Shown piece by piece: positions 1 through 59,189 of a DNA stretch of 64,000 bases. How positions within the stretch are numbered: the stretch's first letter is position 1; every line of letters begins with the position of its first letter. The stretch comes from Escherichia phage PJNS034. The stretch is taken from the sequence record PP391266.1, one strand, 5' to 3'. The notes beneath the pieces were generated by a model. It searched no databases, was not told the origin of the DNA, and worked only from the letters and a program-made list of their open reading frames with translations. Both the position numbers and the translations under genes were made by a program.

Positions 1-54
1 CGTAAAGATGTAAAAGGTAATGGCGGTTACTACGAACACAAAGATGAAATCAGC

Positions 55-267
55 ATGGGTAAATCTACTGCTTATTATCACAGTGACATGCCTTCTCGTG
101 GAGGCCGCTGGAGAATGACCGGCCCTGCTAAGGAGGACGAAAAGGTAACTCGTCGCAACTACATGCACAACGTCAATGCTCGTGATTTGTTGGATGAAGA
201 TGTTGACCTTGTTAATTGTGATAAGGTTTCTCGGAAACAAACCAACAAACACTATGCCCATTACTAA
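55..267 (+). CDS. hypothetical protein (70 aa)
   Basis: ORF-track ORF, co-oriented and tightly spaced with downstream early genes; no recognisable motif. Confidence 0.3.
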   Translation: MGKSTAYYHSDMPSRGGRWRMTGPAKEDEKVTRRNYMHNVNARDLLDEDVDLVNCDKVSRKQTNKHYAHY

Positions 268-313
268 AATCAAGGCTGGCTGAAAAGCTGGCCTTTCTTG
301 TCTCTGAGGTATT

Positions 314-511
314 ATGAAAGTCAGCATTGATTATATTATACGTTCTGCCATTCTTAAACATGGTGAACGGAAGTGGGCTTTGCTAGAAATCCAGCATAGC
401 TTAGGTGTCAGTCGAACTCGTGCAAAAGAACTCTTCTTTGCTTTTACCTATCATGCAAATGAAGAAAACTTACAACGTATTGCTCGTGGTGAAAAGGTAG
501 GTAAAATTTGA
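314..511 (+). CDS. hypothetical protein (65 aa)
   Basis: ORF-track ORF; its end overlaps the next ORF start at 508. Confidence 0.3.
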   Translation: MKVSIDYIIRSAILKHGERKWALLEIQHSLGVSRTRAKELFFAFTYHANEENLQRIARGEKVGKI

Positions 512-759
512 GTATACAACGCATTATCGGTGAACTTGAAGATATCGAAGTTCGCATGGATTCTCTTGAAACAGAGAATGCTGAGTTACGTGATGAACTT
601 AACCGTCTCGCTGAAGAACGTGATGAAGCTATCGAGGAGCGTGATGAAGCATTAGAGCAACTGGAAGTCGTAAACGACGCTCTTGCTCAGGGTGCAGATA
701 TCATTGCTCGTCAAAACGACGTGATTCGTGAATTAGAAAACGAACTCCAAGGAAGTTAA
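508..759 (+). CDS. hypothetical acidic coiled-coil protein (83 aa)
   Basis: ORF-track ORF rich in E/L/R heptad-like sequence (ELRDELNRLAEERDEAIEERDEALEQLE); start codon read as TTG. Confidence 0.3.
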   Translation: MSIQRIIGELEDIEVRMDSLETENAELRDELNRLAEERDEAIEERDEALEQLEVVNDALAQGADIIARQNDVIRELENELQGS

Positions 760-760
760 T

Positions 761-2446
761 TTGGCAAATATTTGGACAACTCCGCTCGCTTTGGAAGCGA
801 AGATAGCAAACATTATCTCCAATCAAGGGAAACATGGTGTTAACTTCAACAAGGCCAAAGCAGCGTTCGGTGTGTTTGTTCTTGCAGAGAAGATTATAAA
901 CATCGACAAAGAGCTTGTCCCTATGCTTCCCATGATGATGCACGTGGGCACTGAATATAAGGCTCCATTCAAAGCGAATGGCGACTTTAAGGTGTTTGTG
1001 CAGAAATATGCGGATAAGGTAGGGTTAAGTCGTTGCGATGTTGGTGGGCCGTTTACAGCGGTTCATTTCACACCATTTGACCCTTCCAAGACTGACCGCA
1101 TGAAGCACGTCATGGCTGACGCTGGATGGGTTCCGGCAGTTTGGAATATCAAGAAGAATCCGATTCAAGAGTTGGATGGTCTTGGTTATATAGAGCGTCA
1201 GAATGCGGAAGCATTGCTTCTTGATAAGTATATCGAGAAGAACATCTTAGGTCATGGTGCTGCATGGACTGAGTTGATGTTGAAAGAGCTTAAATTCCGT
1301 GGACAGCGGAAGATTAGTAAGCTCAAAGAACACATCAGAAAGGCTCGTTATTGGCCTACTTCACCGAAGATTACACCAGATGAAGACAAGTTCGTTGGTG
1401 ATTCAAGAATCGGTGAATTAATTCAATCTCGTATGGTATGGTCACATCGTCGGTCATTACTTGAAGGATTGATTAAACTTGTCAGACCAGATGGGAAGAT
1501 TAGCGCTGATGCAAACAGTTGTGCAACACCCACTGCTCGTATGCGGCATCGTGGTGTGGTCAACATTCCTGCCGCTCGTGCTCCTTTTGGTTATTGGTGC
1601 CGAAGTCTTTTCATGGGAGACTATGACAAGACGGTTAAGAAAGGTTCTGTGTTCTATCCGTTTGGTAAGGAATTGCCAGAAGGATTAAGACGTAAACCGG
1701 GCACAAACATTGTCGAGGAATACGACAAGAAGAAAGATAAATGGAAACACGCTGGTAAATATCGGAAGTTTGTTCCAGCGGGTCAACATATCTTTGTTGG
1801 TTATGATGGTGCAGGTCTTGAACTTCGTATGTTGGCTCACTATGTTGGTGATGAAAACTTTACGAACCAGATTCTTCACGGTGATATTCATAGCCACAAC
1901 CAGTCACTTGCTGGTCTTCCAACTCGTGATAACGCAAAGACGTTTATCTACGCATTCCTGTATGGTGCAGGTGATGCGAAAATCGGTTCTATCATCGGTG
2001 GTACTGCTGATGATGGTGCAGAAATCAAAGCTCGATTCATGAAATCACTTCCGAAACTTGCAGCACTGATTGAGCGTGTTCAACAGATTGCAGGAACTGA
2101 TGGTTATGTCGAAGCGATTGATGGTCGTCGTTTGTATCTTCGTAAAGGTACGAATGGTAAGTATCAGACTCACAAAGCATTGAACGTCTTGTTACAAGGT
2201 GCAGGTGCAATTGTCATGAAGTATGCGATGGCTTGGTTGGATTCTCAGATTAAGAAACAAGGTCTGAGGGCTTACAAGGTTATCGACATGCACGATGAAG
2301 GGCAATTCTCAGTGCATCCTGATGATGTTCCAGCGGTTCGTGAACTGATGGAAAGTTGTGTTAAATGGGCTGGTGAGTTCTTGAAAATGAACTGTCCACT
2401 GGCATCCGATTCAATTGTTGGTCATGACTGGTTTGACACGCATTGA
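761..2446 (+). CDS. DNA polymerase, family A, polymerase domain only (T7 gp5-like C-terminal part)
   Basis: Motif A-like YDGAGLELRMLAHY, motif B-like RDNAKTFIYAFLYGAGDAKIG, motif C-like HDEGQF; strong resemblance by recall to T7 gp5 around these motifs; no 3'-5' exonuclease motifs in this ORF; ORF-track start reads as TTG, first ATG is at codon 55. Confidence 0.85.
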   Translation: MANIWTTPLALEAKIANIISNQGKHGVNFNKAKAAFGVFVLAEKIINIDKELVPMLPMMMHVGTEYKAPFKANGDFKVFVQKYADKVGLSRCDVGGPFTAVHFTPFDPSKTDRMKHVMADAGWVPAVWNIKKNPIQELDGLGYIERQNAEALLLDKYIEKNILGHGAAWTELMLKELKFRGQRKISKLKEHIRKARYWPTSPKITPDEDKFVGDSRIGELIQSRMVWSHRRSLLEGLIKLVRPDGKISADANSCATPTARMRHRGVVNIPAARAPFGYWCRSLFMGDYDKTVKKGSVFYPFGKELPEGLRRKPGTNIVEEYDKKKDKWKHAGKYRKFVPAGQHIFVGYDGAGLELRMLAHYVGDENFTNQILHGDIHSHNQSLAGLPTRDNAKTFIYAFLYGAGDAKIGSIIGGTADDGAEIKARFMKSLPKLAALIERVQQIAGTDGYVEAIDGRRLYLRKGTNGKYQTHKALNVLLQGAGAIVMKYAMAWLDSQIKKQGLRAYKVIDMHDEGQFSVHPDDVPAVRELMESCVKWAGEFLKMNCPLASDSIVGHDWFDTH

Positions 2447-2862
2447 TTCACCCTAATCATTTTAAAGGTGCGGCATCTGAAATGAAGGCTGCTGCACACT
2501 TCCTATCGAAAGGTTACGAAGTATTCTTTCCAGCTATCACACAAAGTGCGGCTGACTTCGTTGTAAAAAGTGAAAGGGGTTATGAAGGTGTTCAAGTCAA
2601 ATCTGCAACACCTTTGAAGTCTGGTGAGGCGAACTACCTCCAAATACGACTACAAGGGAAACCTACTCCATATGCTACCCACAACTATTTAGAAGGTGAT
2701 TTCGAACATCTGGTAGTGGTTTATGGTGATATGATGTGGGACTTTCCGTGGGAATTAGTCAAAGACAAAACATCAATGACCTTCGGACGCCTGAATGAAG
2801 ATGGAACGATATCTACATCAGGGCGAGGTGGTTATAACCCAGAGGATTACAGACTACGATGA
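2443..2862 (+). CDS. hypothetical protein, possible PD-(D/E)xK nuclease fold
   Basis: ORF overlapping the polymerase stop; segment AADFVVKSERGYEGVQVKS resembles a D...E-x-K nuclease core; weak. Confidence 0.3.
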   Translation: MIHPNHFKGAASEMKAAAHFLSKGYEVFFPAITQSAADFVVKSERGYEGVQVKSATPLKSGEANYLQIRLQGKPTPYATHNYLEGDFEHLVVVYGDMMWDFPWELVKDKTSMTFGRLNEDGTISTSGRGGYNPEDYRLR

Positions 2863-3050
2863 TTCGTGTATACTATATGACTCGTGACTGTGGCGACGGT
2901 ACTTCCGTCGTCGATTTCTTCACTGACTTAGCATTTGCTGAGAGCCTTCGTGAAAACGACGAAGAGTTCTTCATGAACGAAAGCATTGATTACTTTGATG
3001 TTCCTGCTCTCGGTACTATCTCTATCTCAACTCCCAAGGATTATGAATAA
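2859..3050 (+). CDS. hypothetical protein (63 aa)
   Basis: ORF-track ORF with start/stop overlap to neighbours. Confidence 0.25.
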   Translation: MIRVYYMTRDCGDGTSVVDFFTDLAFAESLRENDEEFFMNESIDYFDVPALGTISISTPKDYE

Positions 3051-3304
3051 TGTCTCACTTATCTACTCAGAAAACTCTCAAATGGTCTGTAGCCTATCAG
3101 ATTGATACTTCTAAAGCTGTGACACACAGCCTCTTCAATACTCGTGAGGAGGCTCGTGAGCATAAGCGTGGTATGCAGAAGCTGTTAGCTGGTATGCCTA
3201 ACCAGAAGAATCACAAAGTCTGGCTGGAGCGTCATGAGACTGTGTACGACTTCAAAGATGGCAAACGCCACTTCACTATCACCAACGTATCTCGTATTCG
3301 CTAA
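3050..3304 (+). CDS. hypothetical protein (84 aa)
   Basis: ORF-track ORF, operon-like packing. Confidence 0.3.
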   Translation: MSHLSTQKTLKWSVAYQIDTSKAVTHSLFNTREEAREHKRGMQKLLAGMPNQKNHKVWLERHETVYDFKDGKRHFTITNVSRIR

Positions 3305-3597
3305 TGCAAAAGGAAACTACTGTGACGAACCCTATTAAACTGGAAGACGATGCAATCGCTGTTGTGGCATTCTCTGGCAAAGTTATCAAGAAGTCCTTCG
3401 AAGACCTTGACCGACTGATTCCTGACGATGCTGTAGTATCTAACGAGCTTGTGGAGTTCATGAGCACTATGTGGGCAATCATCGAGAAAGGTGTTGAACC
3501 AGTGACACCTGAAATGATTGCTGAAATGGAGGCTGAGGAAGGTGAGATTCAGCCAGACGACCGTTCTGCAATTGAGGGAGAACGTAAAGATGGGTAA
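3304..3597 (+). CDS. hypothetical acidic protein (97 aa)
   Basis: ORF-track ORF, start overlaps previous stop. Confidence 0.3.
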   Translation: MQKETTVTNPIKLEDDAIAVVAFSGKVIKKSFEDLDRLIPDDAVVSNELVEFMSTMWAIIEKGVEPVTPEMIAEMEAEEGEIQPDDRSAIEGERKDG

Positions 3598-3723
3598 ATT
3601 CTTCCTGAAACTGGTTAAGATTTTCAACATGATGGTTGATATCTTTGTCCTGTATGTTCTGCTGTTTGGTCATATGTCAGCGAACATCGGTGGTAAACTT
3701 TACGAATTTAATGGACTGTTCCT

Positions 3724-4047
3724 ATGATTCTATCTGGCACTGTAAATCTTCAAACTGTTAACACTGAGAAGTTAGTAGAAATTGGTGAAGCTGTCTGCAT
3801 CGCTATGGAGCAACGTAAGCAGCTCCTACGCAAGAAGTTCCGAAAGCATGGTAAGGATGCCCTTACTGACTTTGAACTCCGCCTGATTGACGAGGCGCAC
3901 GATTTGGGCACAGACTTCAACGAAGCACTGACTCTTGAATCAAAACGACACGATGAACAACTTGAATCTGACTTCGCTGCTATGAACGCTGCTGATAACG
4001 TCGGTTCAGAAACATTAAAACTGTTAGACATTCCAGCAGAACGATGA
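3724..4047 (+). CDS. hypothetical protein (107 aa)
   Basis: ORF-track ORF. Confidence 0.3.
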   Translation: MILSGTVNLQTVNTEKLVEIGEAVCIAMEQRKQLLRKKFRKHGKDALTDFELRLIDEAHDLGTDFNEALTLESKRHDEQLESDFAAMNAADNVGSETLKLLDIPAER

Positions 4048-4074
4048 TACTCTAGGGCTTCCCGTTAGGGGAGA

Positions 4075-4130
4075 GTAAGAAATAATATAAGGAATATTAG
4101 TAAGATATAATATTCCTTAATATTACTCCT
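4075..4130. repeat. AT-rich palindromic element (aaggaatatta / taatattcctt) with TAAGAAATAATATAAG core
   Basis: 11-bp inverted arms separated by 8 nt, immediately upstream of 4141. Confidence 0.5.
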
Positions 4131-4140
4131 GAGGTGACTC

Positions 4141-4335
4141 ATGCTTGACTCAAAATGTTCACTATGCGGTTGCACTGGTATTCATGCCTGTATGGGCAAG
4201 CCTTTAAGTGATGGTGTTATCTATTCAACTTACGGTAACACCGAAGTTAGAAAGTTAGCCGCGAAAGAGATTCAAGAAATCCAAGAATTATTGGAAAAGA
4301 TTGTTGACACACAACCCAATAACTTGGTATCTTAA
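4141..4335 (+). CDS. hypothetical small Cys-rich protein (64 aa)
   Basis: ATG at 4141 preceded by GAGG; CSLCGC...HAC cluster; sits just upstream of the tRNA array. Confidence 0.3.
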   Translation: MLDSKCSLCGCTGIHACMGKPLSDGVIYSTYGNTEVRKLAAKEIQEIQELLEKIVDTQPNNLVS

Positions 4336-4422
4336 ATACATGGGGTGAGCAATCACCTCTTCCAGAAGTAGTTGGTGTCCACTGTCCCACAAGGGCTGAA
4401 ACGGAACAGAACTTCTGGGTAT

Positions 4423-4500
4423 CTTGATGTAGCTCAGTTTGGTAGCAGCACTTGCTTTGGGAGCAAGGGGTCGAAGGTTCGAATCCTTCCATCAAGACCA
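4423..4500 (+). tRNA. tRNA-Pro (anticodon TGG), CCA encoded
   Basis: Hand-folded cloverleaf: acceptor cttgatg/catcaag, anticodon stem cttgc/gcaag with loop tttggga, T-arm gaagg-ttcgaat-ccttc; D-stem only 3 bp. Confidence 0.7.
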
Positions 4501-4501
4501 A

Positions 4502-4583
4502 GTGGGATTGGCTGAGTGGTCGAAAGCACCTGACTGTAAATCAGGCATATCACGCGGTGGTTCGAATCCATCATCCCACACCA
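4502..4583 (+). tRNA. tRNA-Tyr (anticodon GTA), CCA encoded
   Basis: Acceptor gtgggat/atcccac, anticodon stem cctga/tcagg with loop ctgtaaa, extended variable region, T-arm ggtgg-ttcgaat-ccatc. Confidence 0.65.
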
Positions 4584-4585
4584 AA

Positions 4586-4662
4586 GCGTCACTAACTCAA
4601 TTGGTTAGAGTAGCGGTCTTTTAAACCGCAGGTTCTGAGTTCGAGTCTCAGGTGGCGTACCA
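4586..4662 (+). tRNA. tRNA-Lys (anticodon TTT), CCA encoded
   Basis: Acceptor gcgtcac/gtggcgt (two G-U pairs), D-arm actc...gagt, anticodon stem gcggt/accgc with loop cttttaa, T-arm ctgag-ttcgagt-ctcag. Confidence 0.8.
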
Positions 4663-4664
4663 AA

Positions 4665-4754
4665 GGAAGTTAGGGCTTTGTGGAAAGCAATCGGTCTTGA
4701 AAACCGACCCACTGTAGCGATATGGTGATGGTTCGACTCCATTAGCTTCCTCCA
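4665..4754 (+). tRNA. tRNA-Ser (anticodon TGA), type II, CCA encoded
   Basis: Acceptor ggaagtt/agcttcc, anticodon stem tcggt/accga with loop cttgaaa, long variable arm, T-loop ttcgact. Confidence 0.75.
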
Positions 4755-4756
4755 AT

Positions 4757-4833
4757 TGTTTCGTAGCTCAGTTGGTAAGAGCGTTCGGCTGATAACCGAA
4801 AGGTCACAAGTTCGAGTCTTGTCGAAACAACCA
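4757..4833 (+). tRNA. tRNA-Ile (anticodon GAT), CCA encoded
   Basis: Canonical cloverleaf: acceptor tgtttcg/cgaaaca, D-arm gctc-agttggtaa-gagc, anticodon stem ttcgg/ccgaa with loop ctgataa, T-arm acaag-ttcgagt-cttgt. Confidence 0.85.
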
Positions 4834-4836
4834 AAT

Positions 4837-4925
4837 GACGGGTTGGCAGAGTTGGTTTATTGCAGCAGCTTGCTAAGTTGCCGAGTCGAAAGGCTCCGTG
4901 GGTTCGAATCCCACACCCGACGCCA
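4837..4925 (+). tRNA. tRNA-Ser (anticodon GCT), type II, CCA encoded
   Basis: Anticodon stem gcagc/gttgc with loop ttgctaa, 16-nt variable arm, T-arm gtggg-ttcgaat-cccac; acceptor has one A-A mismatch as read. Confidence 0.6.
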
Positions 4926-4926
4926 A

Positions 4927-5002
4927 GGACGATAAGCACATGTGGATGTGCGGCAGGCTGTTAACCTGATGGCAGTTGGTTCGAATCCAACATCGTCCGC
5001 CA
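4927..5002 (+). tRNA. tRNA-Asn (anticodon GTT), CCA encoded
   Basis: Acceptor ggacgat/atcgtcc, D-arm gcac...gtgc, anticodon loop ctgttaa, T-arm gttgg-ttcgaat-ccaac. Confidence 0.75.
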
Positions 5003-5004
5003 AT

Positions 5005-5079
5005 AGCGAGATAGTTCAGTGGTAGAATATCGGTTTCATACGCCGACCGTCGATGGTTCGATTCCATCTCTCGCTACCA
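5005..5079 (+). tRNA. tRNA with CAT anticodon (elongator Met or Ile2 type), CCA encoded
   Basis: Acceptor agcgaga/tctcgct fully paired at 1:72 (not initiator-like), anticodon stem tcggt/gccga with loop ttcatac, T-arm gatgg-ttcgatt-ccatc. Confidence 0.75.
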
Positions 5080-5095
5080 AACCTCTTTATCCGAT

Positions 5096-5167
5096 GGGAG
5101 TGTCCTTCTGGGAAGGATGTGGATTCCAACCCCACTAAGTAGAGTTCGATTCTTTACACTCCCGCCA
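5096..5167 (+). tRNA. tRNA-like, possibly tRNA-Gly (anticodon TCC), CCA encoded
   Basis: Acceptor gggagtg/cactccc and T-arm tagag-ttcgatt-cttta fold well; D-loop very short and one mismatch in the anticodon stem. Confidence 0.45.
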
Positions 5168-5174
5168 AATCCCT

Positions 5175-5251
5175 AGCCTTGTAGTGTAGTCTGGTTAGCA
5201 CACGTGACTTTGACTCACGGAGCTTAGGTTCGAATCCTGACAGGGCTGCCA
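5175..5251 (+). tRNA. tRNA-Gln (anticodon TTG), CCA encoded
   Basis: Acceptor agccttg/cagggct, D-arm gtgt...gcac, anticodon stem cgtga/tcacg with loop ctttgac, T-arm ttagg-ttcgaat-cctga. Confidence 0.8.
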
Positions 5252-5267
5252 ATAAGAGGTAATATCA

Positions 5268-5558
5268 ATGTCTGTTCGTTGTTGGAATGCCGCTGGAAAG
5301 CTGGTAGCAGATGTTGGTGACTACAATGTCCGATACTTAGGACGTCAGACGATTACTTACCCTGCGAAAGCTGCTTCAGCAAGAGGCAACTTAGCGGGGT
5401 TAACTGCATCTGGCTCCTTTGGAGTCATTGTGGGAGCCAGTCAAGGTGCCTTTAATGATTATGTAGTAAAGGCAGTTAACGGTGGGTATGAAGTTCTGGC
5501 TAACAGGACAATCTACCAAAATACGACACTTACAGTGGATTTATATAGCTTCGTATGA
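5268..5558 (+). CDS. hypothetical protein (96 aa)
   Basis: ATG at 5268 preceded by AAGAGG; no recognisable motif. Confidence 0.35.
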   Translation: MSVRCWNAAGKLVADVGDYNVRYLGRQTITYPAKAASARGNLAGLTASGSFGVIVGASQGAFNDYVVKAVNGGYEVLANRTIYQNTTLTVDLYSFV

Positions 5559-11092: not shown

Positions 11093-11751
11093 ACTGGAGA
11101 TTAATATGGTCAGTCTTTGCCGTGCTATCCATTCTGTTTGGGTGCGTTGTTTCAAAAGCAAGTTACGAAGTAATGGCGACGTCCCTAGTGGGCGTCATGT
11201 TCGTGATAGGGGTAGCCTTCAAGAAAGCAAGTGCGAATCTTTTGGGGGCTATACTGTGCGCTATGCTTGGGTTGATGAGCTGGCAAGCTGGATACTACAT
11301 GAACGCGATTATCAACATCTTCTTATTGCTACCACTCCAGTTATTAGCTTACGCCAATTGGACGACAGGGGTGTCGAAGCGAGAGCATCACAGGTACTTG
11401 GTGGAAACGGTCTGTCGCAAACGATTCTTGATTTACACATGTTGGCTAATTCCTCTCTTGGTAGCCGCATACTTCTCAGGCAGCCGTTTGTGGGTACACG
11501 ATGCTGTGACAGCCTCACTTGTGATTGTCGCAACACTTCTCCTCATGTTCAATACCAAAGAGCAATGGCAATTCTGGATTCCATACAATCTGGTAGAAGT
11601 CTTCATGTGGTTCATCGCAGCGAGTACAGCCCCTGAAATGCTTGCAATTATGTTCATGCGTATTGTATTCTTCATTAACAGTCTGATTGGCTATTACGAA
11701 TGGAGGAACGATGGCAATCCACGGACGCTACTTTCGACAGAAACCCGCTGA
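11089..11751 (+). CDS. PnuC-like nicotinamide riboside transporter (putative)
   Basis: 220-aa polytopic membrane protein; C-terminal LIGYYEWRN resembles the PnuC IYGWYEW signature; start overlaps stop of upstream Rcl-like gene. Confidence 0.45.
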   Translation: MNWRLIWSVFAVLSILFGCVVSKASYEVMATSLVGVMFVIGVAFKKASANLLGAILCAMLGLMSWQAGYYMNAIINIFLLLPLQLLAYANWTTGVSKREHHRYLVETVCRKRFLIYTCWLIPLLVAAYFSGSRLWVHDAVTASLVIVATLLLMFNTKEQWQFWIPYNLVEVFMWFIAASTAPEMLAIMFMRIVFFINSLIGYYEWRNDGNPRTLLSTETR

Positions 11752-12172
11752 GTTAAAAGGTACTGACTATGACTCACGTCTTGAGAAAAGGCTGCATGAG
11801 GCGCTTCCCGTCCTCAACCACCATCCAGCGAAAAGGCCGTATGTTCGACACCATACCTACGAGCCAGATTTCGAAGTACAAGGAAACAAGACATATCTTG
11901 TTGAAGCCAAAGGTTACTTCCAAGACCGTAACGAACTTGGCAAGTACCTCCCCATTGCGGAGTCTCTGGGCGATAGTGCTGAGTTGGTATTTGTGTTTGA
12001 GAATGCCGACAAACCAATCCACTTCCAAGCCAAACGTAAGGATGGAAGCAAAATGACACATCGTGAGTGGTGTGTTAAGAATGGATTTCAAGTCTTTGAC
12101 GAGGATGAGTTCCGAGTATGGATTCCAAGTGTTACTACTGTGACGGAATCGGGAGACACAGAGCTTTCGTAA
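11687..12172 (+). CDS. endonuclease I-like Holliday-junction resolvase (T7 gp3-like)
   Basis: HTYEPDFEVQGNKTYLVEAKGYF matches the T7 endonuclease I core HTYTPDFLLPNGIFVETKGLW (PD...E-x-K). Confidence 0.75.
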   Translation: MAITNGGTMAIHGRYFRQKPAELKGTDYDSRLEKRLHEALPVLNHHPAKRPYVRHHTYEPDFEVQGNKTYLVEAKGYFQDRNELGKYLPIAESLGDSAELVFVFENADKPIHFQAKRKDGSKMTHREWCVKNGFQVFDEDEFRVWIPSVTTVTESGDTELS

Positions 12173-52645: not shown

Positions 52646-53455
52646 ATGACGATTCGCCTGATTACTCTTGGTGCTGACCCTGAAACTATTGTTGCTCGCA
52701 ACGGTGTTCCAACTCACGCTATTGGTCTTATCGGCGGTACTAAGGAAGAACCACGTAAGATTATCCGTGGTGGTCGTGAAGTTGGTGCGGTGCAGGAAGA
52801 TAATGTCCTGTATGAGTTCAACATCATGCCACACGATACTCGTCAGGGATTCATTGACAACATTCAGCAGATGTTGGAAGTGGGTCGTGAGATTCTGGGT
52901 GATGGTTACGAAATCACTAATAAGACTTCTCACATCTTCTCTGATGAAGACATGGCTCATTTCCCTGACTCAGCGTTTATCTTCGGTTGTGAACCGGATT
53001 TCTTCGCTGGTAATGGTGAGATGAATCCGAAGCCTGCTGCACCGTGGCCGGGTCTGCGTACCGCAGGTGGTCATGTTCACTTCGGGTTCGATGAGCGTGT
53101 AGTTCGTGATGATGAGAATGTTCGTTCTCTGATTCAACTGTGCGATATGTATATGGCGTTGCCGTCAATGCTTCTGGACACTGACGACCTGCGTAAAGAA
53201 CTGTATGGTAAGGCCGGTGCATTCCGTCCGAAAGCATATGGTGCTGAATATCGTACACTGTCAGGTTTCTGGATTCATAATCCTGAAAATACTGGCTTCG
53301 TGTTTGACCAAGCGCAGAAAGCGTATGATGCGTTGGCAACTGGTCTGGGTCGTGAGATGTTGGCACGTTTCCCATACGAACTGGTTGTCGATATCATCAA
53401 CAGCAATGACCGTGGACGTGCTGAACGTGCCCTGAAAGTTATGCAGGTTGCATAA
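52646..53455 (+). CDS. amidoligase-like protein, divergent (269 aa)
   Basis: GADPETIV and TAGGHVHFGF parallel the GLELELE and STHVHLD segments of the downstream amidoligase-like ORF; preceded by conserved leader. Confidence 0.4.
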   Translation: MTIRLITLGADPETIVARNGVPTHAIGLIGGTKEEPRKIIRGGREVGAVQEDNVLYEFNIMPHDTRQGFIDNIQQMLEVGREILGDGYEITNKTSHIFSDEDMAHFPDSAFIFGCEPDFFAGNGEMNPKPAAPWPGLRTAGGHVHFGFDERVVRDDENVRSLIQLCDMYMALPSMLLDTDDLRKELYGKAGAFRPKAYGAEYRTLSGFWIHNPENTGFVFDQAQKAYDALATGLGREMLARFPYELVVDIINSNDRGRAERALKVMQVA

Positions 53456-53637
53456 TGGAAGAAGGTCTGCTGATTAGCTGGGTTGAATCTCCAGCGAACC
53501 GTAAGACCAAGACTCATACCCTCTTCTTCGAAAGCCTGGACGAGGGTTATGAGTTCATGGCCTCTAAAAGTTGTGTAATTCAAGTACAACGCATTCCACT
53601 GGTGAGAAAGAATGGCGAAACTGGTAACGGTAAATAA
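53455..53637 (+). CDS. hypothetical protein (60 aa)
   Basis: ORF-track ORF, start overlaps previous stop. Confidence 0.25.
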   Translation: MEEGLLISWVESPANRKTKTHTLFFESLDEGYEFMASKSCVIQVQRIPLVRKNGETGNGK

Positions 53638-53803
53638 CGCAGATAAAACTGTAACTCGTCGTGTCTTTATGGACAACGAAGAGGGTATCATGTGGGCAGT
53701 TGACCAAGCCCGCACAGCACTGTCAGTCGTGACTGATGATGTGGAAGTGGTCGAGGCTTCCAGCCGTAAAGGTTGGGAAGGTCATATCGCATGTGATTGC
53801 TAA
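53612..53803 (+). CDS. hypothetical protein (63 aa)
   Basis: ORF-track ORF. Confidence 0.25.
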   Translation: MAKLVTVNNADKTVTRRVFMDNEEGIMWAVDQARTALSVVTDDVEVVEASSRKGWEGHIACDC

Positions 53804-53827
53804 TTTAAACTGAACGAGAGAACTAAA

Positions 53828-54436
53828 ATGTCAATCAATATGTCAAGTGGTGATTTACGTCTGTATTGGGGTGGGTGTTATGCACCTGTTGCATGGGATG
53901 CAGCAGATAGTGGCGTAGCAACACTGGTAATTCACGACGTTCGTGTGATAAATCCAATGTCACGTGACTACACCGAAGCACGAGTTCAAGGTGAACTATT
54001 CTTCATTCGTAATGGAGAAGAGGCTCGTGGTAATTTTGAAGGTCGTATGTCTGACCTCCTCGGTGATGGGTTCACCACTCCTCAACGCAATATCGGTTAT
54101 ATCCGTGTTCACGGTCAACCGTATTGGATTACCTTCAAACGTCGTCGTACAAATCGTAAAGGCATCACCAATGACCGTCTGGCTGTGTATGTAGCTGGGC
54201 ATCGTGGTGAAGCAGGTTTGAACTTCGGTAGTGATGTGTTGTGTCGTCTGTATGCAACCTTTGATGGTCGTATCTCTGATGATTTCTGTATTCATCAGAA
54301 CATGATTCATTATAAAGGTGTGGTTGTCGGACGTTATGAGCGTCACAATCGTATTGTATTAGCTGAACGTTTTGCGTATCTTAGCTGGTCGCTGGAACGT
54401 ATCGGTGGTTACGACGTAACGGTGGAGGTTGAGTAA
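53828..54436 (+). CDS. hypothetical protein (202 aa) inside ligase cluster
   Basis: Preceded by conserved TTAAACTGAACGAG leader; stop overlaps amidoligase start. Confidence 0.4.
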   Translation: MSINMSSGDLRLYWGGCYAPVAWDAADSGVATLVIHDVRVINPMSRDYTEARVQGELFFIRNGEEARGNFEGRMSDLLGDGFTTPQRNIGYIRVHGQPYWITFKRRRTNRKGITNDRLAVYVAGHRGEAGLNFGSDVLCRLYATFDGRISDDFCIHQNMIHYKGVVVGRYERHNRIVLAERFAYLSWSLERIGGYDVTVEVE

Positions 54437-55260
54437 TGATTATTGCTGACATTTTAGGGCATGGTCGTGGGTCGGATGTTGTTGATACGCATCCGTTGAT
54501 TGTTGGTCGAGGCCGTGTAGGACTCGAATTAGAACTGGAGAATATGCCAAATGCTCGACAAGCTGCTGGTTGGACAGTTACTGGTGACGGTTCTCTGCGT
54601 AATAGCGGCGTGGAATATGTACTCCGTGGTGCTCAGGGAGGTATGGAGTTATTTAATTCGATACTTTCTCTGGAAGAAGCACTCATGGCACATCAATGTG
54701 ATGCTAACCTTCGCTGCTCTACTCACGTTCACCTTGATATACGTCGGCTCACTGTGGCTCAACTCAAGCGTTTACTTCTGGCTTATACAGTCTTTGAGCC
54801 ATTAATCTTTGAGTTGTCCGGTGCGCATCGTCGTACTAACAACTTCTGTCCGTCGTTTAGTTTCGCTCAGCAACAAATTCGTAAGCTGAGTAACAACTGG
54901 CATCATGATGGTGAACGATTCCTTGCTCGTATTGTGGAAGGTCGTGACCGCCAATCCAGTGATAAGTATTCAGCACTGAATCTGGTTCCAATCTTCACTC
55001 AGGGTTCTGTAGAGTTCCGTGGTGCAGAAGCGAAGCCAAGTGCAGGTAAGATGATTCGTCTGGCTAACCGTATTCTAAGTCTGTATGACTTAGCGGTTAA
55101 CTCTGATATGAATCAGTCTGATGCTGAGTTCATTAACTCACTGGCGAACCTTGATGTTCAACAGGCATTGATGGGTACGATTCCTCGTGACTTCGAACTC
55201 AGCGAAGAACTGGTGAATGAAGGACGTGTCTTAGCGTTCGATATTATCTCTCTGGGGTGA
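54436..55260 (+). CDS. amidoligase (Amidoligase_2 / carboxylate-amine ligase-like) protein
   Basis: VGLELELE...DGSLRNSGVEYV...STHVHLD resembles the putative amidoligase family (glutamine-synthetase-like fold) as recalled. Confidence 0.5.
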   Translation: MIIADILGHGRGSDVVDTHPLIVGRGRVGLELELENMPNARQAAGWTVTGDGSLRNSGVEYVLRGAQGGMELFNSILSLEEALMAHQCDANLRCSTHVHLDIRRLTVAQLKRLLLAYTVFEPLIFELSGAHRRTNNFCPSFSFAQQQIRKLSNNWHHDGERFLARIVEGRDRQSSDKYSALNLVPIFTQGSVEFRGAEAKPSAGKMIRLANRILSLYDLAVNSDMNQSDAEFINSLANLDVQQALMGTIPRDFELSEELVNEGRVLAFDIISLG

Positions 55261-55261
55261 C

Positions 55262-55477
55262 ATGAGCTGGAACGAACGAGAGTATCGTAAACCAAAGTTG
55301 GGCACTGTATGTGTCCACTTCGAACCTTCGTATAAGTCAACCTTTGGAAGTACGAAGAAGTTCCCTAACGCATCGTTCTACTTGAGTACGAACGGTGTAA
55401 TCATCATCCGTGATATGGATGGTGACAACATCTGTGCATACCCTGAAGGTGTGTGGCTGAATGTTGAAATGAAGTGA
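55262..55477 (+). CDS. hypothetical protein (71 aa)
   Basis: ORF-track ORF; followed by a clean terminator hairpin. Confidence 0.3.
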   Translation: MSWNEREYRKPKLGTVCVHFEPSYKSTFGSTKKFPNASFYLSTNGVIIIRDMDGDNICAYPEGVWLNVEMK

Positions 55478-55485
55478 TTAACTCA

Positions 55486-55508
55486 AGCCCTTCTTCGGGA
55501 GGGTTTTA
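55486..55508 (+). terminator. Rho-independent terminator (cassette copy 3)
   Basis: 8-bp stem agcccttc/ggagggtt with ttcg loop, then tttta; preceded by AACTCAAG. Confidence 0.55.
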
Positions 55509-55563
55509 TGGTAATCATTACCACAAACTATTGAAACTAACTATTGAACTTGAGGAAAGTATT

Positions 55564-57156
55564 ATGTGCGGAATCGTTGGAATTATGCGTGGCGTTATGA
55601 CTGAAGGTATGGTGGACATGTTTGAACAACTGCTGTATGCAGATGTGTTCCGTGGCCCGCACTCCACTGGCGTCTATCGTGTTAATAAAGATGGTCAATC
55701 AGGGTTGTATAAGGATGCAGTACCTGCGTCTTTATATCTTGGCTCGAAAGGCTGGGATGATTTACGTGGGAATCTGAATGGAACTGCTGGTCATCAGGCA
55801 CTGTCTCAAGTTTATGTTGGTCATAACCGTTGGGCAACTGTAGGTGCAGTTAACGCTGTGAACTCACATCCATTCAAGTGCGGTAACATCACGATGGTAC
55901 ACAATGGTACTGTTGCGAAGTGGCGTTTGAATGACCACCTGAAGTATGACGTTGATAGTCATGCGGTGTGTGCGATGTTGGATTCACATGGTCTGGCTGA
56001 AACTCTGAAAGTTCTGGATGGTAAGTTTACTCTGGTGTGGCATGACGCATCTGATAACACCATGAACTTTATCCGTAATGCAGAACGTCCTCTGCACATG
56101 GTTGAGTTCACTGATGGTGGTTGGGCGTTTGCATCAGAAGGTGAGATGTTAACGTGGATTAATGGTCGTCGTAAGACCCCGTTTGGTATTAAACGTGCTT
56201 TCGAACTGCCAGTTGGCTTCCATCATAAATTCCAGTTATCCGCGAGCAAAGTAGAGCTTGCGGAGGTCGTTAAGTACGAACTCCCAAAGTTCACCAGCTA
56301 CGCCAGCAACAGCACGTATTATCCAAACCGAAGCTCAGTCGCAAGCAGCAGCGCAAGCTCAACAAACTCAGAAAGCGCAACCGCTAGACGTGTGCGTCTG
56401 ATGAAAGAGTGGGGCATTGACGTTGGAGACCGCAAAGATGTAGAGAACATGATTGTGTCTCTGGATAACATCGCGTTCACAGCGTACTCAACCAATGCAG
56501 CATCAGGTCGTATTGATGCAGACGCATGGGGTTACGATGAAGCTGTTGATGCCTGTGATGCTGGTCATATGGAAATTGACTGTAAGCGTGGTGGTAAAAC
56601 TGAAGATGTTCAGGTAACAGTTTACGGTGTTGATACTGTTAAGTGGAAAGACAACTACTCTCAGGGCGACCGTCTGTACGGTAAGATTGACAGTGTGTTT
56701 GAATCCACTGAGCATGGCAAGACTCGTCTTCGTATCACTTTGAAACCACTGACTCTGTGTACTGAGTTGGCTGATGGCGTTGAAGCCTTTAATGAGAAAG
56801 TGTTCCCGCTCCTCATTAAGAAAGAGGCCGAAAAGGTTGATGCCGACAAAAGTAAATCAGATGTTGCAGGAAGCACTGGAAGCGCAGGAACTGCAACTGG
56901 TCAGGGAACTCAGTTATCGGTTGTAGTGGATAACACTGCAAAAAAGCCGGAAGGTACGGACTCATCAAGCGGCTCGCCGAACTTGTTCAACATGTCCGCA
57001 ATTCCAATGAGTCTTAAAGACTTGCGTGAAGACAAGCTGAGTTGTGCTTGGTGCGGAAATGCAATCCACGAACATAACTACGAAATGTCTGATATGTTCT
57101 TTAAATCTCACATCTGCCCAGATTGTGCCAAGGAGTTACCGGGTTATGGCGACTGA
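55564..57156 (+). CDS. class II (Ntn-type) glutamine amidotransferase-like protein with C-terminal zinc ribbon
   Basis: Begins MCGIVGI (Cys directly after Met, hallmark of N-terminal nucleophile amidotransferases); Ser-rich linker; C-terminal CAWCG...CPDC; start moved to internal ATG with GAGG upstream. Confidence 0.7.
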   Translation: MCGIVGIMRGVMTEGMVDMFEQLLYADVFRGPHSTGVYRVNKDGQSGLYKDAVPASLYLGSKGWDDLRGNLNGTAGHQALSQVYVGHNRWATVGAVNAVNSHPFKCGNITMVHNGTVAKWRLNDHLKYDVDSHAVCAMLDSHGLAETLKVLDGKFTLVWHDASDNTMNFIRNAERPLHMVEFTDGGWAFASEGEMLTWINGRRKTPFGIKRAFELPVGFHHKFQLSASKVELAEVVKYELPKFTSYASNSTYYPNRSSVASSSASSTNSESATARRVRLMKEWGIDVGDRKDVENMIVSLDNIAFTAYSTNAASGRIDADAWGYDEAVDACDAGHMEIDCKRGGKTEDVQVTVYGVDTVKWKDNYSQGDRLYGKIDSVFESTEHGKTRLRITLKPLTLCTELADGVEAFNEKVFPLLIKKEAEKVDADKSKSDVAGSTGSAGTATGQGTQLSVVVDNTAKKPEGTDSSSGSPNLFNMSAIPMSLKDLREDKLSCAWCGNAIHEHNYEMSDMFFKSHICPDCAKELPGYGD

Positions 57157-57439
57157 TAAAATTGTAATTCGTATGCCGAAAGACGACATTGAATGTGAGC
57201 GGAAATATCCGTTCACTTACTTCATGAATGCAGCGCTGCGTGGTATGCAGCGTCGCTACTCTGAACAAGCGTCGGCAAAGTTTGGTAGTGAAGTTGAGAT
57301 TCTATTCCCAACTGCATTATCAAAAATGATTCATGACCACATGGTCACTCTGTATCAACAGGAAGGATTCGAACTCGCTGAAGAAGATTTCGAAGACTCC
57401 GAACAATACCGCAAATATCTGAAACTAATTAAGGGCTAA
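57146..57439 (+). CDS. hypothetical protein (97 aa)
   Basis: ATG overlapping the amidotransferase stop; ORF-track frame. Confidence 0.35.
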   Translation: MATDKIVIRMPKDDIECERKYPFTYFMNAALRGMQRRYSEQASAKFGSEVEILFPTALSKMIHDHMVTLYQQEGFELAEEDFEDSEQYRKYLKLIKG

Positions 57440-57444
57440 AACAA

Positions 57445-58938: not shown

Positions 58939-58967
58939 TTGCTTTAGGGTATTCTTCGGAGTACCCT

Positions 58968-59189
58968 ATGTCGATTGAACCGAACGAGGAATATATGAAA
59001 GTATGGGTAGTTATGTTCCAAGAGTATGACCTAGCCGAAGTGCTGGAAATCTACTCGAAGGAAGAAGATGCTATAGCACATCGTCAGGCTGAAATTGATA
59101 AGAGCTTGTCATACGCTAAGAAGTGGAATGTCAAACCACACCCTGCGCTCGAACAGTTTTATACAATTCACGAAAAAGAGGTAAAGTAA
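58968..59189 (+). CDS. hypothetical protein (73 aa)
   Basis: ATG lies at the 3' edge of a hairpin whose loop carries GGAG. Confidence 0.3.
   Translation: MSIEPNEEYMKVWVVMFQEYDLAEVLEIYSKEEDAIAHRQAEIDKSLSYAKKWNVKPHPALEQFYTIHEKEVK

What the first reader, a model, noticed from the sequence alone, without database searches (positions are those of the whole stretch)
508..2862. Polymerase-domain gene has no canonical start and is followed by a nuclease-like ORF
The polymerase-domain ORF begins at a TTG immediately after the stop of a coiled-coil ORF, with the first ATG 55 codons in. Directly downstream and overlapping its stop is an ORF with a possible PD-(D/E)xK pattern, while a clear T7 endonuclease I homologue exists separately at 11687..12172. 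A nuclease gene beside a split polymerase gene is the footprint expected of a homing endonuclease or other mobile insertion that disrupted an ancestral gene.
Basis: inference. Interest (0 to 1): 0.45.

Follow-up and report, generated by a model that had tools for sequence, protein, structure and literature searches.

The report
Mobile nuclease gene behind phage polymerase
A small selfish nuclease gene, related to phage T7 gene 5.3 and to a known homing endonuclease, has inserted exactly at the end of this phage's DNA polymerase gene. The polymerase's unusual TTG start and its separate proofreading gene are normal inherited features of this phage group, not damage done by the insertion.

Summary

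**Source.** The window is Escherichia phage PJNS034 (65.7 kb).

**Polymerase gene (761..2446).**
- It starts at TTG 761, with an AAGGA ribosome-binding site 7 nt upstream.
- The start is supported by conservation: five clade members use TTG, two more distant orthologues use GTG, and one uses ATG.
- Codons 1-54 are under purifying selection and align with the N-termini of distant orthologues.
- The proofreading (3'-5' exonuclease) domain is a separate gene (63061..63609). It lies upstream across several kb of ordinary small genes, including dUTPase.
- Kuravirus and Bruynoghevirus polymerases are also polymerase-only, and Bruynoghevirus annotates the exonuclease as a separate "part I". The split is therefore inherited.

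**Nuclease ORF (2443..2862).**
- It is a confident member of the I-Ssp6803I family of PD-(D/E)XK nucleases: Pfam PF11645 above threshold, AF2 pLDDT 94, top fold hit 2OST, and E13/D38/Q51-V52-K53 conserved.
- It is a homologue of T7 gene 5.3.
- It is a 416-bp optional cassette, absent from a relative whose polymerase is 99% identical, from TacPo2, and from three further clade members.
- The last 13 nt of the polymerase gene carry 5 silent changes right next to the insert.
- The same insertion site and the same recoding recur in T7, Kuravirus and Bruynoghevirus.

**Best reading.** It is a free-standing homing endonuclease that targets the 3' end of family A polymerase genes. It did not split the polymerase.

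The parts
508..759 (+). Coiled-coil ORF (83 aa), with its TTG start overlapping the stop of ORF 314..511 (TTGA). A conserved neighbour immediately upstream of the polymerase gene; function unknown.
   Evidence: Only weak coiled-coil Pfam matches. A counterpart sits at the same position in TacPo2 (TacPo2_31, 85 aa) and in L017 (83 aa).
749..753 (+). Shine-Dalgarno sequence (AAGGA) serving the polymerase TTG start, with a 7-nt spacer.
   Evidence: Read directly from the sequence. SD-like motifs precede the start of all 8 orthologues compared.
761..2446 (+). Polymerase-only family A DNA polymerase gene (561 aa), TTG start, TGA stop. Its last 13 nt (2434..2446) are silently recoded relative to HEG-less relatives.
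   Evidence: Pfam DNA_pol_A and phrog_17 residues 8-560. Over codons 1-54 there is 1 aa change and 10 silent changes against TacPo2. The N-terminus aligns from residue 1 with Kuravirus and Bruynoghevirus orthologues. 5 of the last 13 nt differ from L017.
2443..2862 (+). Free-standing I-Ssp6803I-family PD-(D/E)XK nuclease gene (139 aa), a candidate homing endonuclease and homologue of T7 gene 5.3. TTG start overlaps the polymerase stop (TTGA), and its stop overlaps the next gene's ATG (ATGA). The inserted DNA is 2443..2858 (416 bp).
   Evidence: PF11645 at 34.2 bits vs GA 26.1. phrog_5018. AF2 pLDDT 94.2. Foldseek top hit 2OST, prob 1.0, TM 0.70. Family profile vs 2OST E 1.4e-11. Invariant E13 and D38, and Q51-V52-K53 in 90% or more of 91 homologues. 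Absent from L017 and TacPo2.
2859..3050 (+). 63-aa ORF (MIRVYY...) that directly follows the polymerase gene in HEG-less relatives; the right flank of the insertion.
   Evidence: In TacPo2 and L017 its ATG overlaps the polymerase stop (CACTAATGATTCGTG). phrog_13236. No mismatch to L017 in the first 101 nt.
63061..63609 (+). Separate 3'-5' exonuclease (proofreading) gene, the other half of the split polymerase. The likely start is M30 of the listed ORF 62974..63609.
   Evidence: Pfam DNA_pol_A_exo1. phrog_17 profile positions 674-828, directly preceding the polymerase ORF's 836-1233. TacPo2_24 is 182 aa with the same domain.
63606..64000 (+). dUTPase gene (runs off the window end), the first of the ordinary genes lying between the exonuclease and polymerase genes.
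   Evidence: phrog_135 dUTPase, E 1.2e-26. TacPo2_25 is a dUTPase.

Best explanation
ORF 2443..2862 is a free-standing homing endonuclease gene of the I-Ssp6803I (PD-(D/E)XK, Pfam PDDEXK_5) family. It has been inserted as a 416-bp cassette exactly at the stop codon of the family A DNA polymerase gene.

**Proposed mechanism (inferred, not shown).**
- In a mixed infection, the enzyme cuts HEG-less relatives in or next to the last ~13-25 bp of their polymerase gene. This stretch encodes the conserved C-terminus ...W-x-x-T-H-stop.
- Repair of the break copies in the cassette together with a short, silently recoded polymerase 3' end.
- The carrier is immune for two reasons: the insertion interrupts the site, and the terminal codons are recoded.
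- The gene has no promoter of its own. It is probably translated at a low level by coupling to polymerase translation, since its TTG overlaps the polymerase TGA and there is no Shine-Dalgarno site.

**The polymerase itself is intact and ordinary for its clade.** It is a polymerase-only protein starting at TTG 761 with a good ribosome-binding site, and it works with a separately encoded 3'-5' exonuclease. That split predates the nuclease insertion and has nothing to do with it.
For: **Fold and family.**
- PF11645 scores above its gathering cut-off.
- The AF2 model has pLDDT 94.
- All four top Foldseek hits are I-Ssp6803I chains (prob 1.0, TM 0.64-0.71). The next hit, Hjc, has E ~1e-2.
- A 91-sequence family profile matches 2OST at E 1.4e-11, aligning D and Q-V-K exactly.
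- E13 and D38 are invariant, and Q51, V52 and K53 are conserved in 90% or more of the sequences.

**Optional cassette.**
- Window 729..2442 and 2859..3175 align to adjacent TacPo2 sequence, with 416 bp against 3 bp in between.
- L017, whose polymerase is 99% aa identical, lacks the ORF and has the junction CACTAATGATTCGTG.
- Only 1 of 6 clade genomes carries the ORF.
- It occurs in 1 phage (2 records) among the 80 records matching the Kuravirus query, and in 5 of ~93 Bruynoghevirus records.

**Same insertion site in unrelated phages.** The homologue lies within 20 nt of a family A polymerase stop in T7 (gene 5.3), Kuravirus MN05, Bruynoghevirus phiIBB-PAA2, Molineuxvirinae ZK1 and Zobellviridae HSd1.

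**Recoding next to the insert.**

| HEG+ vs HEG- pair | Mismatches at the polymerase 3' end | Elsewhere in the polymerase gene | P |
|---|---|---|---|
| PJNS034 vs L017 | 5 of last 13 nt, all silent | 1.9% | 2.5e-6 |
| PAA2 vs 1429 | 7 of 22 | 10 of 1168 | 5e-10 |
| T7 vs YpsP-G | 6 of 23 | 5 of 845 | 4e-9 |
| MN05 vs 172-1 | 6 of 24 | 42 of 1152 | 2e-4 |

- For PJNS034 vs L017, the first mismatch on the right side is 102 nt away.
- In PAA2 the insert sits 9 nt inside the old polymerase gene. The cassette supplies new T-H-stop codons, while the nuclease ORF ends in the old ones.

**Dispensability.** T7 gp5.3 was deleted as one of T7's nonessential genes (PMC12153263), and gp5.3-disrupted mutants came to dominate serially transferred, CRISPR-selected T7 populations (PMC9825161).

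**Polymerase start and split.**
Against: - No cleavage activity or target site has been shown for this protein or, as far as I could find, for any phage member of the family, T7 gp5.3 included.
- The nuclease ORF has a TTG start with no Shine-Dalgarno site. An internal ATG at 2482 (codon 14) follows a possible AAGGTG; a product from there would lack catalytic E13, so the active protein may be made rarely or not at all.
- Clusters of substitutions are not unique to the junction. PJNS034 vs L017 has another cluster of 5 mismatches in 10 nt, 343-352 nt before the stop.
- Recoded flanks could come from any recombination that imported the cassette, not specifically from endonuclease-driven homing.
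- No significant pseudo-palindromic target was found at the empty sites.
- Constant adjacency to the polymerase is also what a functional partnership would give.
- No close donor is known; the best homologue is 43% identical.
Confidence: 0.65

Rival explanations
1. The nuclease is an accessory replication or repair factor that works with the polymerase, for example by processing intermediates. On this reading it sits next to the polymerase gene because of functional linkage, and it was lost in some relatives.
For: It is adjacent to a family A polymerase gene in at least six phage lineages. It appears to be co-transcribed and translationally coupled to the polymerase. The fold is shared with Hjc resolvases, though these are lower-ranked hits.
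Against: - The distribution is very sporadic among near-identical genomes: 1 of 6 in this clade, 1 phage among the 80 records matching the Kuravirus query, and 5 of ~93 Bruynoghevirus records.
- A 99%-identical polymerase works without it.
- T7 gp5.3 is dispensable (PMC12153263), and gp5.3-disrupted mutants came to dominate serially transferred T7 populations (PMC9825161).
- Simple loss does not explain silent recoding confined to the polymerase codons touching the insert.
- The phage already has an endonuclease I homologue.
Confidence: 0.1
2. The ORF is a decaying or silenced relic of a homing endonuclease gene: once mobile, now poorly or not expressed and no longer active.
For: It has a TTG start without a Shine-Dalgarno site and no promoter-like signal beyond chance. 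An internal ATG at codon 14 would remove E13. Homing endonuclease genes are expected to degenerate after fixation (established life-cycle model; my own knowledge).
Against: The ORF is full-length, with every conserved family position kept (E13, D38, Q51-V52-K53, G9, P30, W99, P102) and a very confident fold. TTG starts are also used by the MN05 and ZK1 homologues. TTGA/ATGA overlaps are a normal coupling device in this genome.
Confidence: 0.15
3. The nuclease is a phage-versus-phage or anti-host weapon, such as a superinfection-exclusion or defence-type PD-(D/E)XK nuclease, without true homing.
For: PF11645-type domains are listed in several candidate defence systems (PMC10952713). Homing endonucleases can mediate exclusion of related phages (my own knowledge of the T4 seg/mob genes).
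Against: There is no meaningful PADLOC match (best E 0.01, 12.6 bits). It is a single small gene with no partner. The repeated, precise placement at the polymerase stop codon and the recoded flanks point to site-specific insertion. Exclusion of competitors by cutting their polymerase gene would in practice coexist with homing rather than replace it.
Confidence: 0.07
4. One reading: a mobile nuclease insertion broke an ancestral full-length polymerase gene, producing the exonuclease/polymerase split and the missing ATG.
For: The polymerase really is split into exonuclease and polymerase genes, and a mobile nuclease gene is really next to it.
Against: - The nuclease lies downstream of the polymerase stop. 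It is several kb from the split: ~2.4 kb separate the two genes in TacPo2, and about 2.9 kb is inferred here from the 65,715-bp genome length.
- HEG-less TacPo2 has the same split, and HEG-less L017 has the same TTG start and N-terminus.
- Kuravirus and Bruynoghevirus orthologues (47-51% identity) are also polymerase-only and start at the same residue.
- The interval holds dUTPase, MazG-like and thioredoxin-like genes and no clear homing endonuclease.
Confidence: 0.03

Closest known systems
I-Ssp6803I (PDB 2OST), the PD-(D/E)XK homing endonuclease of the Synechocystis tRNA-fMet group I intron
   Same: Same Pfam family (PF11645). It is the best structural match (TM ~0.7, prob 1.0). The family profile matches it at E 1.4e-11 over the full length. 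The D...Q-V-K motif is shared, and so is the small size (~140-150 aa).
   Different: I-Ssp6803I is intron-encoded and targets a tRNA gene. This gene is free-standing, has no intron (no Rfam hit), and sits at the 3' end of a protein-coding polymerase gene. Sequence identity is only ~20%. Target, oligomeric state and activity are untested here.
Bacteriophage T7 gene 5.3 protein
   Same: Homologue: 38% identity over 86% of the query, tblastn E ~1e-17 to 4e-18 depending on the record. Same position, 15 nt after the stop of the family A polymerase gene. Optional among T7 relatives, with the same recoding of the last ~23 nt of gene 5. Dispensable (PMC12153263, PMC9825161).
   Different: T7's polymerase is a full-length exonuclease+polymerase protein of a more distant family A lineage. 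gp5.3 is shorter (118 aa), has its own Shine-Dalgarno site and ATG, and is annotated only as hypothetical in the T7 records I checked.
Free-standing homing endonucleases beside phage DNA polymerase genes, such as the HNH gene 5.3 of T3/phiYeO3-12 and intron-encoded endonucleases in T7-like and LUZ24 polymerase genes
   Same: Same genomic niche and the same proposed logic of intronless homing: an optional nuclease gene between conserved genes cuts the neighbouring conserved gene in genomes that lack it (PMC6083498 background; PMC4925675 annotates phiYeO3-12 gp5.3 as a homing endonuclease).
   Different: A different catalytic family (PD-(D/E)XK rather than HNH or Endo VII). The insertion is at or inside the last polymerase codons, with the polymerase C-terminus rebuilt.
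Split polymerases of Bruynoghevirus (LUZ24/PaP3-like 'DNA polymerase part I / part II') and the polymerase-only enzyme of Kuravirus phiEco32
   Same: The polymerase-only proteins are 47-51% identical to this one over their full length, including the N-terminus. In Bruynoghevirus the exonuclease is likewise a separate upstream gene, with small ORFs in between. phiEco32's polymerase is annotated as lacking both exonuclease domains. They use non-ATG starts (GTG).
   Different: The genes filling the interval differ and are not conserved even between PJNS034 and TacPo2.

Membership tests
Pfam PF11645 PDDEXK_5 / I-Ssp6803I-like PD-(D/E)XK nucleases | Sequence match to the family model above the curated threshold | tested here: met
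   34.2 bits vs gathering cut-off 26.1, residues 6-112. The family profile of 91 homologues hits 2OST at E 1.4e-11.
Pfam PF11645 PDDEXK_5 / I-Ssp6803I-like PD-(D/E)XK nucleases | Restriction-endonuclease-like alpha/beta fold most similar to I-Ssp6803I | tested here: met
   AF2 pLDDT 94.2, pTM 0.88. Foldseek ranks 1-4 are 2OST chains, prob 1.0, TM 0.64-0.71.
Pfam PF11645 PDDEXK_5 / I-Ssp6803I-like PD-(D/E)XK nucleases | Catalytic residues: an acidic residue on helix 1, Asp, and the (Q)-x-K motif | tested here: met
   E13 and D38 are invariant, and Q51, V52 and K53 are conserved in 90% or more of 91 homologues. D and QVK align to the same residues of 2OST. The 2OST chain has Q where this family has E13; I recall the crystal used an inactive mutant, which I did not verify.
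Homing endonuclease (functional class) | Optional gene: present or absent at the same site in otherwise collinear, closely related genomes | tested here: met
   Absent from L017 (polymerase 99% aa identical), TacPo2, L018, L020 and L021. The same holds in Kuravirus, Bruynoghevirus and T7 relatives.
Homing endonuclease (functional class) | Footprint of transfer: altered sequence (co-conversion or immunity changes) confined to the flank next to the insert | tested here: met
   5 silent changes in the last 13 nt of the polymerase gene vs L017 (P 2.5e-6). The equivalent counts are 7/22, 6/23 and 6/24 in three other lineages. Caveat: another cluster exists elsewhere in the gene.
Homing endonuclease (functional class) | Site-specific cleavage of the endonuclease-lacking allele at a long target near the insertion site | not testable with these tools
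   This needs a biochemical assay. The search for a pseudo-palindromic target at the empty sites was inconclusive.
Homing endonuclease (functional class) | Super-Mendelian inheritance of the gene in crosses, dependent on nuclease activity | not testable with these tools
   This needs mixed-infection experiments.
Intron- or intein-encoded homing endonuclease | Embedded in a self-splicing intron or an intein | tested here: not met
   No Rfam family other than tRNAs in 1..5400. The ORF lies after the polymerase stop in a different frame, so it is free-standing.
Family A DNA polymerase, polymerase-only subunit with separate exonuclease subunit | A polymerase domain without an exonuclease domain, plus a separately encoded 3'-5' exonuclease contiguous in the family profile | tested here: met
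   DNA_pol_A hit on 761..2446 and DNA_pol_A_exo1 hit on 62974..63609. phrog_17 positions are 674-828 for the exonuclease and 836-1233 for the polymerase. Orthologues from Kuravirus and Bruynoghevirus are also polymerase-only.
Holliday-junction resolvase (Hjc-like) | Closest fold and sequence relationship to Hjc/Hje resolvases, and the sole resolvase of the genome | tested here: not met
   Hjc hits are far weaker (E ~1e-2, TM 0.37-0.49) than I-Ssp6803I. A phage endonuclease I homologue is present at 11687..12172.

The most novel reading that the evidence does not exclude
The PDDEXK_5 proteins of tailed phages, with T7 gp5.3 as the textbook member, form a single widespread lineage of free-standing homing endonucleases specialised on the last codons of family A DNA polymerase genes (the conserved ...W-x-x-T-H-stop).

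On this reading they insert at, or a few nucleotides inside, the stop codon and carry a silently recoded replacement for the polymerase C-terminus. One element could then spread across very different phage families: Autographiviridae, Kuravirus, Bruynoghevirus, Zobellviridae and the TacPo2/PJNS034 group.
Probability: 0.5. Interest if true: 0.55.

Novelty: new member of a known kind. Interest (0 to 1): 0.4.

Why it matters
**For annotation.**
- The polymerase should be annotated from TTG 761 as an intact polymerase-only subunit, not as a damaged gene.
- The ORF behind it should be called a putative PD-(D/E)XK homing endonuclease rather than "hypothetical protein".

**More broadly.**
- The comparison gives a function to test for T7 gene 5.3, a gene of the best-studied phage that is annotated only as hypothetical in the T7 records I checked.
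- It predicts a defined ~13-25 bp target at the end of family A polymerase genes.
- Such elements shuffle DNA between co-infecting phages. They matter for the stability of therapeutic phage cocktails and could supply new long-target nucleases.
- Homing endonuclease genes beside phage polymerase genes are already a familiar theme, so this is a refinement, not a surprise.

Tried and rejected
- **IMG/VR search with the polymerase protein**. Exact-DNA scans of viral and metagenome contigs with the conserved polymerase 3' sequence also found no relatives. The useful sister allele came from the protein database instead.
- **Word-index protein search with the nuclease**. It found only the protein itself, which identified the phage as PJNS034. 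Look-up of its contig failed, so the 1.7 kb of the genome missing between the window's end and its start was not seen.
- **Contigs of the two best metagenomic nuclease homologues**. They were too short (547 and 630 bp) to show context.
- **The search for related loci with the nuclease alignment**.
- **Single-sequence search of PDB sequences**. It gave only noise; the family profile was needed.
- **Group I intron or other RNA around the nuclease**. None found.
- **Own promoter or terminator**. Consensus hits were at chance level.
- **Deviant base composition of the insert**. GC is 0.433 vs 0.453 for the window, the 18th percentile, which is not informative.
- **Defence-system membership**. No meaningful PADLOC hit.
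- **Pseudo-palindromic target at empty sites**. The best palindrome in L017 and TacPo2 is centred 1.5 nt after the polymerase stop, but it is not significant (12-13% of shuffles do as well) and is absent in other lineages.
- **Recoding signal using TacPo2 alone**. It was weak (rank 41 of 551 windows) because the genomes are 10% diverged. It became clear only with L017.
- **A homing endonuclease between the exonuclease and polymerase genes**. Only a secondary, weak HNH-family PHROG hit for TacPo2_29 (E 1.7e-4). Rejected as evidence.
- **Key papers**. Zhao 2007 and 2009 and Bonocora & Shub 2004 and 2009 were not held in the library, so prior statements about T7 gene 5.3 could not be checked.


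Full report
**What the window is.** The nuclease ORF's product is identical to a hypothetical protein of Escherichia phage PJNS034, on a 65,715-bp contig. The 64-kb window is therefore almost the whole genome, opened just upstream of the polymerase gene.
- The closest GenBank genome in the phage collection is Pantoea phage TacPo2. Only its polymerase gene exceeds 85% nucleotide identity to the window (90%).
- Gene content includes a phiEco32-type COOH-NH2 ligase, an amidoligase and a glutamine amidotransferase. The polymerase is similar to those of Kuravirus and Bruynoghevirus. Both features place the phage near those groups.

**The polymerase start.** The ORF opens at TTG 761, four nucleotides after the TAA of the coiled-coil ORF. 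AAGGA lies 7 nt upstream, and the first ATG is codon 55. Four lines of evidence show that codons 1-54 are translated.
- The PHROG polymerase profile aligns from residue 8.
- Against TacPo2, the first 54 codons carry 1 amino-acid change and 10 silent changes.
- The N-terminus aligns from residue 1 with the polymerase-only proteins of Kuravirus MN05 (47% identity) and Bruynoghevirus phiIBB-PAA2 (51%). Many positions in the first 60 residues are invariant.
- Every orthologue examined starts at the equivalent codon behind a Shine-Dalgarno-like motif. The start codon is TTG in PJNS034, L017, TacPo2, L018 and L020, GTG in MN05 and PAA2, and ATG only in L021.

In the annotated part of TacPo2, 8 of 35 genes use non-ATG starts, including the primase-helicase and dUTPase genes. 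The missing ATG is real, but it is a clade habit and not a scar.

**The split.** A 3'-5' exonuclease ORF lies at 62974..63609, with its likely true start at 63061. This is at the other end of the window and so just upstream in the circular map.
- In the PHROG polymerase profile it covers positions 674-828, and the polymerase ORF continues at 836. The break is therefore exactly at the domain boundary.
- TacPo2 has the same arrangement. About 2.4 kb between its two genes encodes a dUTPase, a MazG-like protein, a thioredoxin-like protein and small unknown ORFs. The window begins the same way, with a dUTPase at 63606..64000.
- phiEco32's polymerase is annotated as lacking both exonuclease domains. 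Bruynogheviruses annotate "DNA polymerase part I / part II" with small ORFs in between.
- The split is therefore inherited across a wide group. No clear homing endonuclease occupies it.

**The nuclease ORF.** ORF 2443..2862 matches Pfam PDDEXK_5 above threshold and phrog_5018.
- A full HMMER scan of 1.84 billion representatives found 187 related clusters, almost all single-domain proteins of about 100-170 aa.
- In an alignment of 91 of them, E13 and D38 are invariant. G9, P30, Q51, V52, K53, W99 and P102 are conserved in 90% or more of the sequences.
- The AlphaFold model is very confident (pLDDT 94.2).
- Its four best PDB matches are the four chains of I-Ssp6803I (prob 1.0, TM 0.64-0.71), far ahead of Hjc resolvases and EcoRV.
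- The family profile hits the I-Ssp6803I sequence at E 1.4e-11, with D and Q-V-K aligned.
- A separate endonuclease I homologue exists at 11687..12172, barely above threshold. Junction resolution is therefore probably covered elsewhere.

**It is an optional cassette.**
- Against TacPo2, window 729..2442 and 2859..3175 align to adjacent sequence. Between them the window has 416 bp where TacPo2 has 3 bp.
- In TacPo2 the polymerase stop overlaps the ATG of the next ORF (cacTAATGattcgtg).
- A Logan metagenome contig (L017) encodes a polymerase 99% identical in protein and 97.9% in DNA. It has the same empty junction.
- Three further clade members (82%, 71% and 61% polymerase identity) also lack the gene.

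**The footprint.**
- PJNS034 and L017 differ at 36 of 1686 polymerase nucleotides.
- Five of these fall in the last 13 nt: TTT/TTC, GAC/GAT, ACG/ACT, CAT/CAC and TGA/TAA. All are silent.
- The next mismatch is 109 nt upstream. To the right of the insert the first mismatch is at nucleotide 102. The binomial P is 2.5e-6.
- L017 and TacPo2 are about 10% diverged from each other, yet they share the same terminal 13 nt and junction.
- One caveat: another cluster of 5 mismatches in 10 nt lies 343-352 nt before the stop, so clusters are not unique to the junction.

**The pattern repeats elsewhere.** tblastn finds homologues in 119 phage records. The homologue starts within 20 nt of the stop of a family A polymerase gene in five lineages:
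- T7, where it is gene 5.3
- Kuravirus MN05
- Bruynoghevirus phiIBB-PAA2, where it overlaps the polymerase end
- Molineuxvirinae ZK1
- Zobellviridae HSd1

In a Mesorhizobium phage it lies about 600 bp downstream. Weak Felixounavirus hits lie in a tRNA array instead.

The gene is sporadic within each group: 1 phage (2 records) among the 80 records matching the Kuravirus query, and 5 of ~93 Bruynoghevirus records.

The HEG+/HEG- comparisons in other lineages show the same signature.
- **phiIBB-PAA2 vs vB_PaeP_1429 (99.2% identical).** The 389-bp insert sits 9 nt before the old polymerase stop. The nuclease ORF ends in the old T-H-stop codons, and the cassette supplies new ones. Seven of the 17 mismatches lie within 22 nt to the left, and none lie to the right (P 5e-10).
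- **T7 vs Yersinia phage YpsP-G.** Six of 11 polymerase mismatches fall in the last 23 nt (P 4e-9).
- **MN05 vs 172-1.** Six mismatches fall in the last 24 nt (P 2e-4).
- **Kuravirus alleles.** The site has three states: empty, the PDDEXK_5 gene, or an unrelated 121-aa ORF, phi32_52.
- **His codon.** In the genomes examined, the final His codon is CAC in all ten HEG-less alleles and CAT in four of the six HEG-carrying ones. These are not all independent lineages.

**Mechanism.**
- *Shown:* family membership, fold, conserved catalytic residues, optional presence at a fixed site, and recoded flanks.
- *Inferred:* the protein cuts HEG-less polymerase genes at or near their last ~13-25 bp, and recombinational repair copies in the cassette with a short left-hand co-conversion tract. 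The carrier would be protected by the interruption of the site and by the silent changes.
- Expression appears to depend on read-through transcription and translational coupling (TTGA overlap, no Shine-Dalgarno site, promoter-like hits at chance level). That would keep a potentially toxic nuclease at a low level.
- It also leaves open that the gene is poorly expressed or decaying.
- T7 gp5.3 is dispensable (PMC12153263), and gp5.3-disrupted mutants came to dominate serially transferred T7 populations (PMC9825161). This fits a selfish gene better than a replication factor.

**Verdict.** The element is a new member of a known kind. The cross-family preference for the very end of family A polymerase genes, and its implication for T7 gene 5.3, is the part I could not find described in the accessible literature. 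Several key subscription papers were not available.

Noticed in passing
window 314..511: A 65-aa ORF (phrog_9565, unknown function) lies between a conserved terminator hairpin and the coiled-coil ORF. TacPo2 has no gene there, since its terminator is followed directly by the coiled-coil ORF. L017 has a 54-aa ORF at that position. This is another small indel next to the polymerase gene.
   Followed up: partly
window 272..295: A terminator-like hairpin (AAGGCTGGCTGAAAAGCTGGCCTT followed by a T-rich tail) is conserved in TacPo2 (L001 ~7730-7758). It probably marks a transcription-unit boundary just upstream of the polymerase operon.
   Followed up: no
window 508-511 and 2443-2446: A TTGA start/stop overlap (the TTG start of one gene overlapping the TGA stop of the previous one) is used twice within 2 kb. 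Three consecutive genes (508, 761, 2443) start with TTG.
   Followed up: partly
window 4423..5251: A cluster of 10 tRNA genes (Pro, Tyr, Lys, Ser, Ile, Ser, Asn, Met, Trp, Gln). TacPo2 has 11 at the same place with a different set: it has Glu and Phe but no Pro.
   Followed up: no
window 52646..59596: A gene cluster with a phiEco32-type COOH-NH2 ligase, an amidoligase, a class-II glutamine amidotransferase and a gamma-glutamyl cyclotransferase-like protein. It may be a small-molecule or macromolecule modification pathway. It is unrelated to the finding.
   Followed up: no
window 2095..2104 and 699..733: PJNS034 and the 97.9%-identical contig L017 differ in two further tight clusters. One has 5 mismatches in 10 nt inside the polymerase gene, including D447A. 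The other is a dense patch at the 3' end of the coiled-coil ORF. These may be small recombination patches.
   Followed up: no
L011 1485..1850 (phiEco32 phi32_52); L010 (phage 172-1): The site right after the Kuravirus polymerase gene has three alleles. It is empty in 172-1, NJ01 and ES17, holds the PDDEXK_5 gene in MN05, and holds an unrelated 121-aa ORF in phiEco32 and most others (phrog_2510, no Pfam hit). The unrelated ORF is flanked by a duplicated ~12-nt SD-ATG sequence.
   Followed up: partly
L008 3501..3827 (Escherichia phage Tribble, Felixounavirus): A weak PDDEXK_5-like match (E 5e-4) falls on an unannotated stretch between tRNA-Ser and tRNA-Leu in a large tRNA array. This is notable because I-Ssp6803I itself targets a tRNA gene.
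   Followed up: no
Pseudomonas phage TL, HG518155.1 18672..21358 (row H159): In this Bruynoghevirus a different endonuclease gene (gp33) separates "DNA polymerase part II" from "part III". It shows that this polymerase gene is repeatedly invaded by different nuclease genes.
   Followed up: no
L020 4715..5038: In a 71%-identical relative, the ORF directly after the polymerase is a 107-aa protein with a weak DUF7206 hit. The post-polymerase site may hold yet another cassette type.
   Followed up: no
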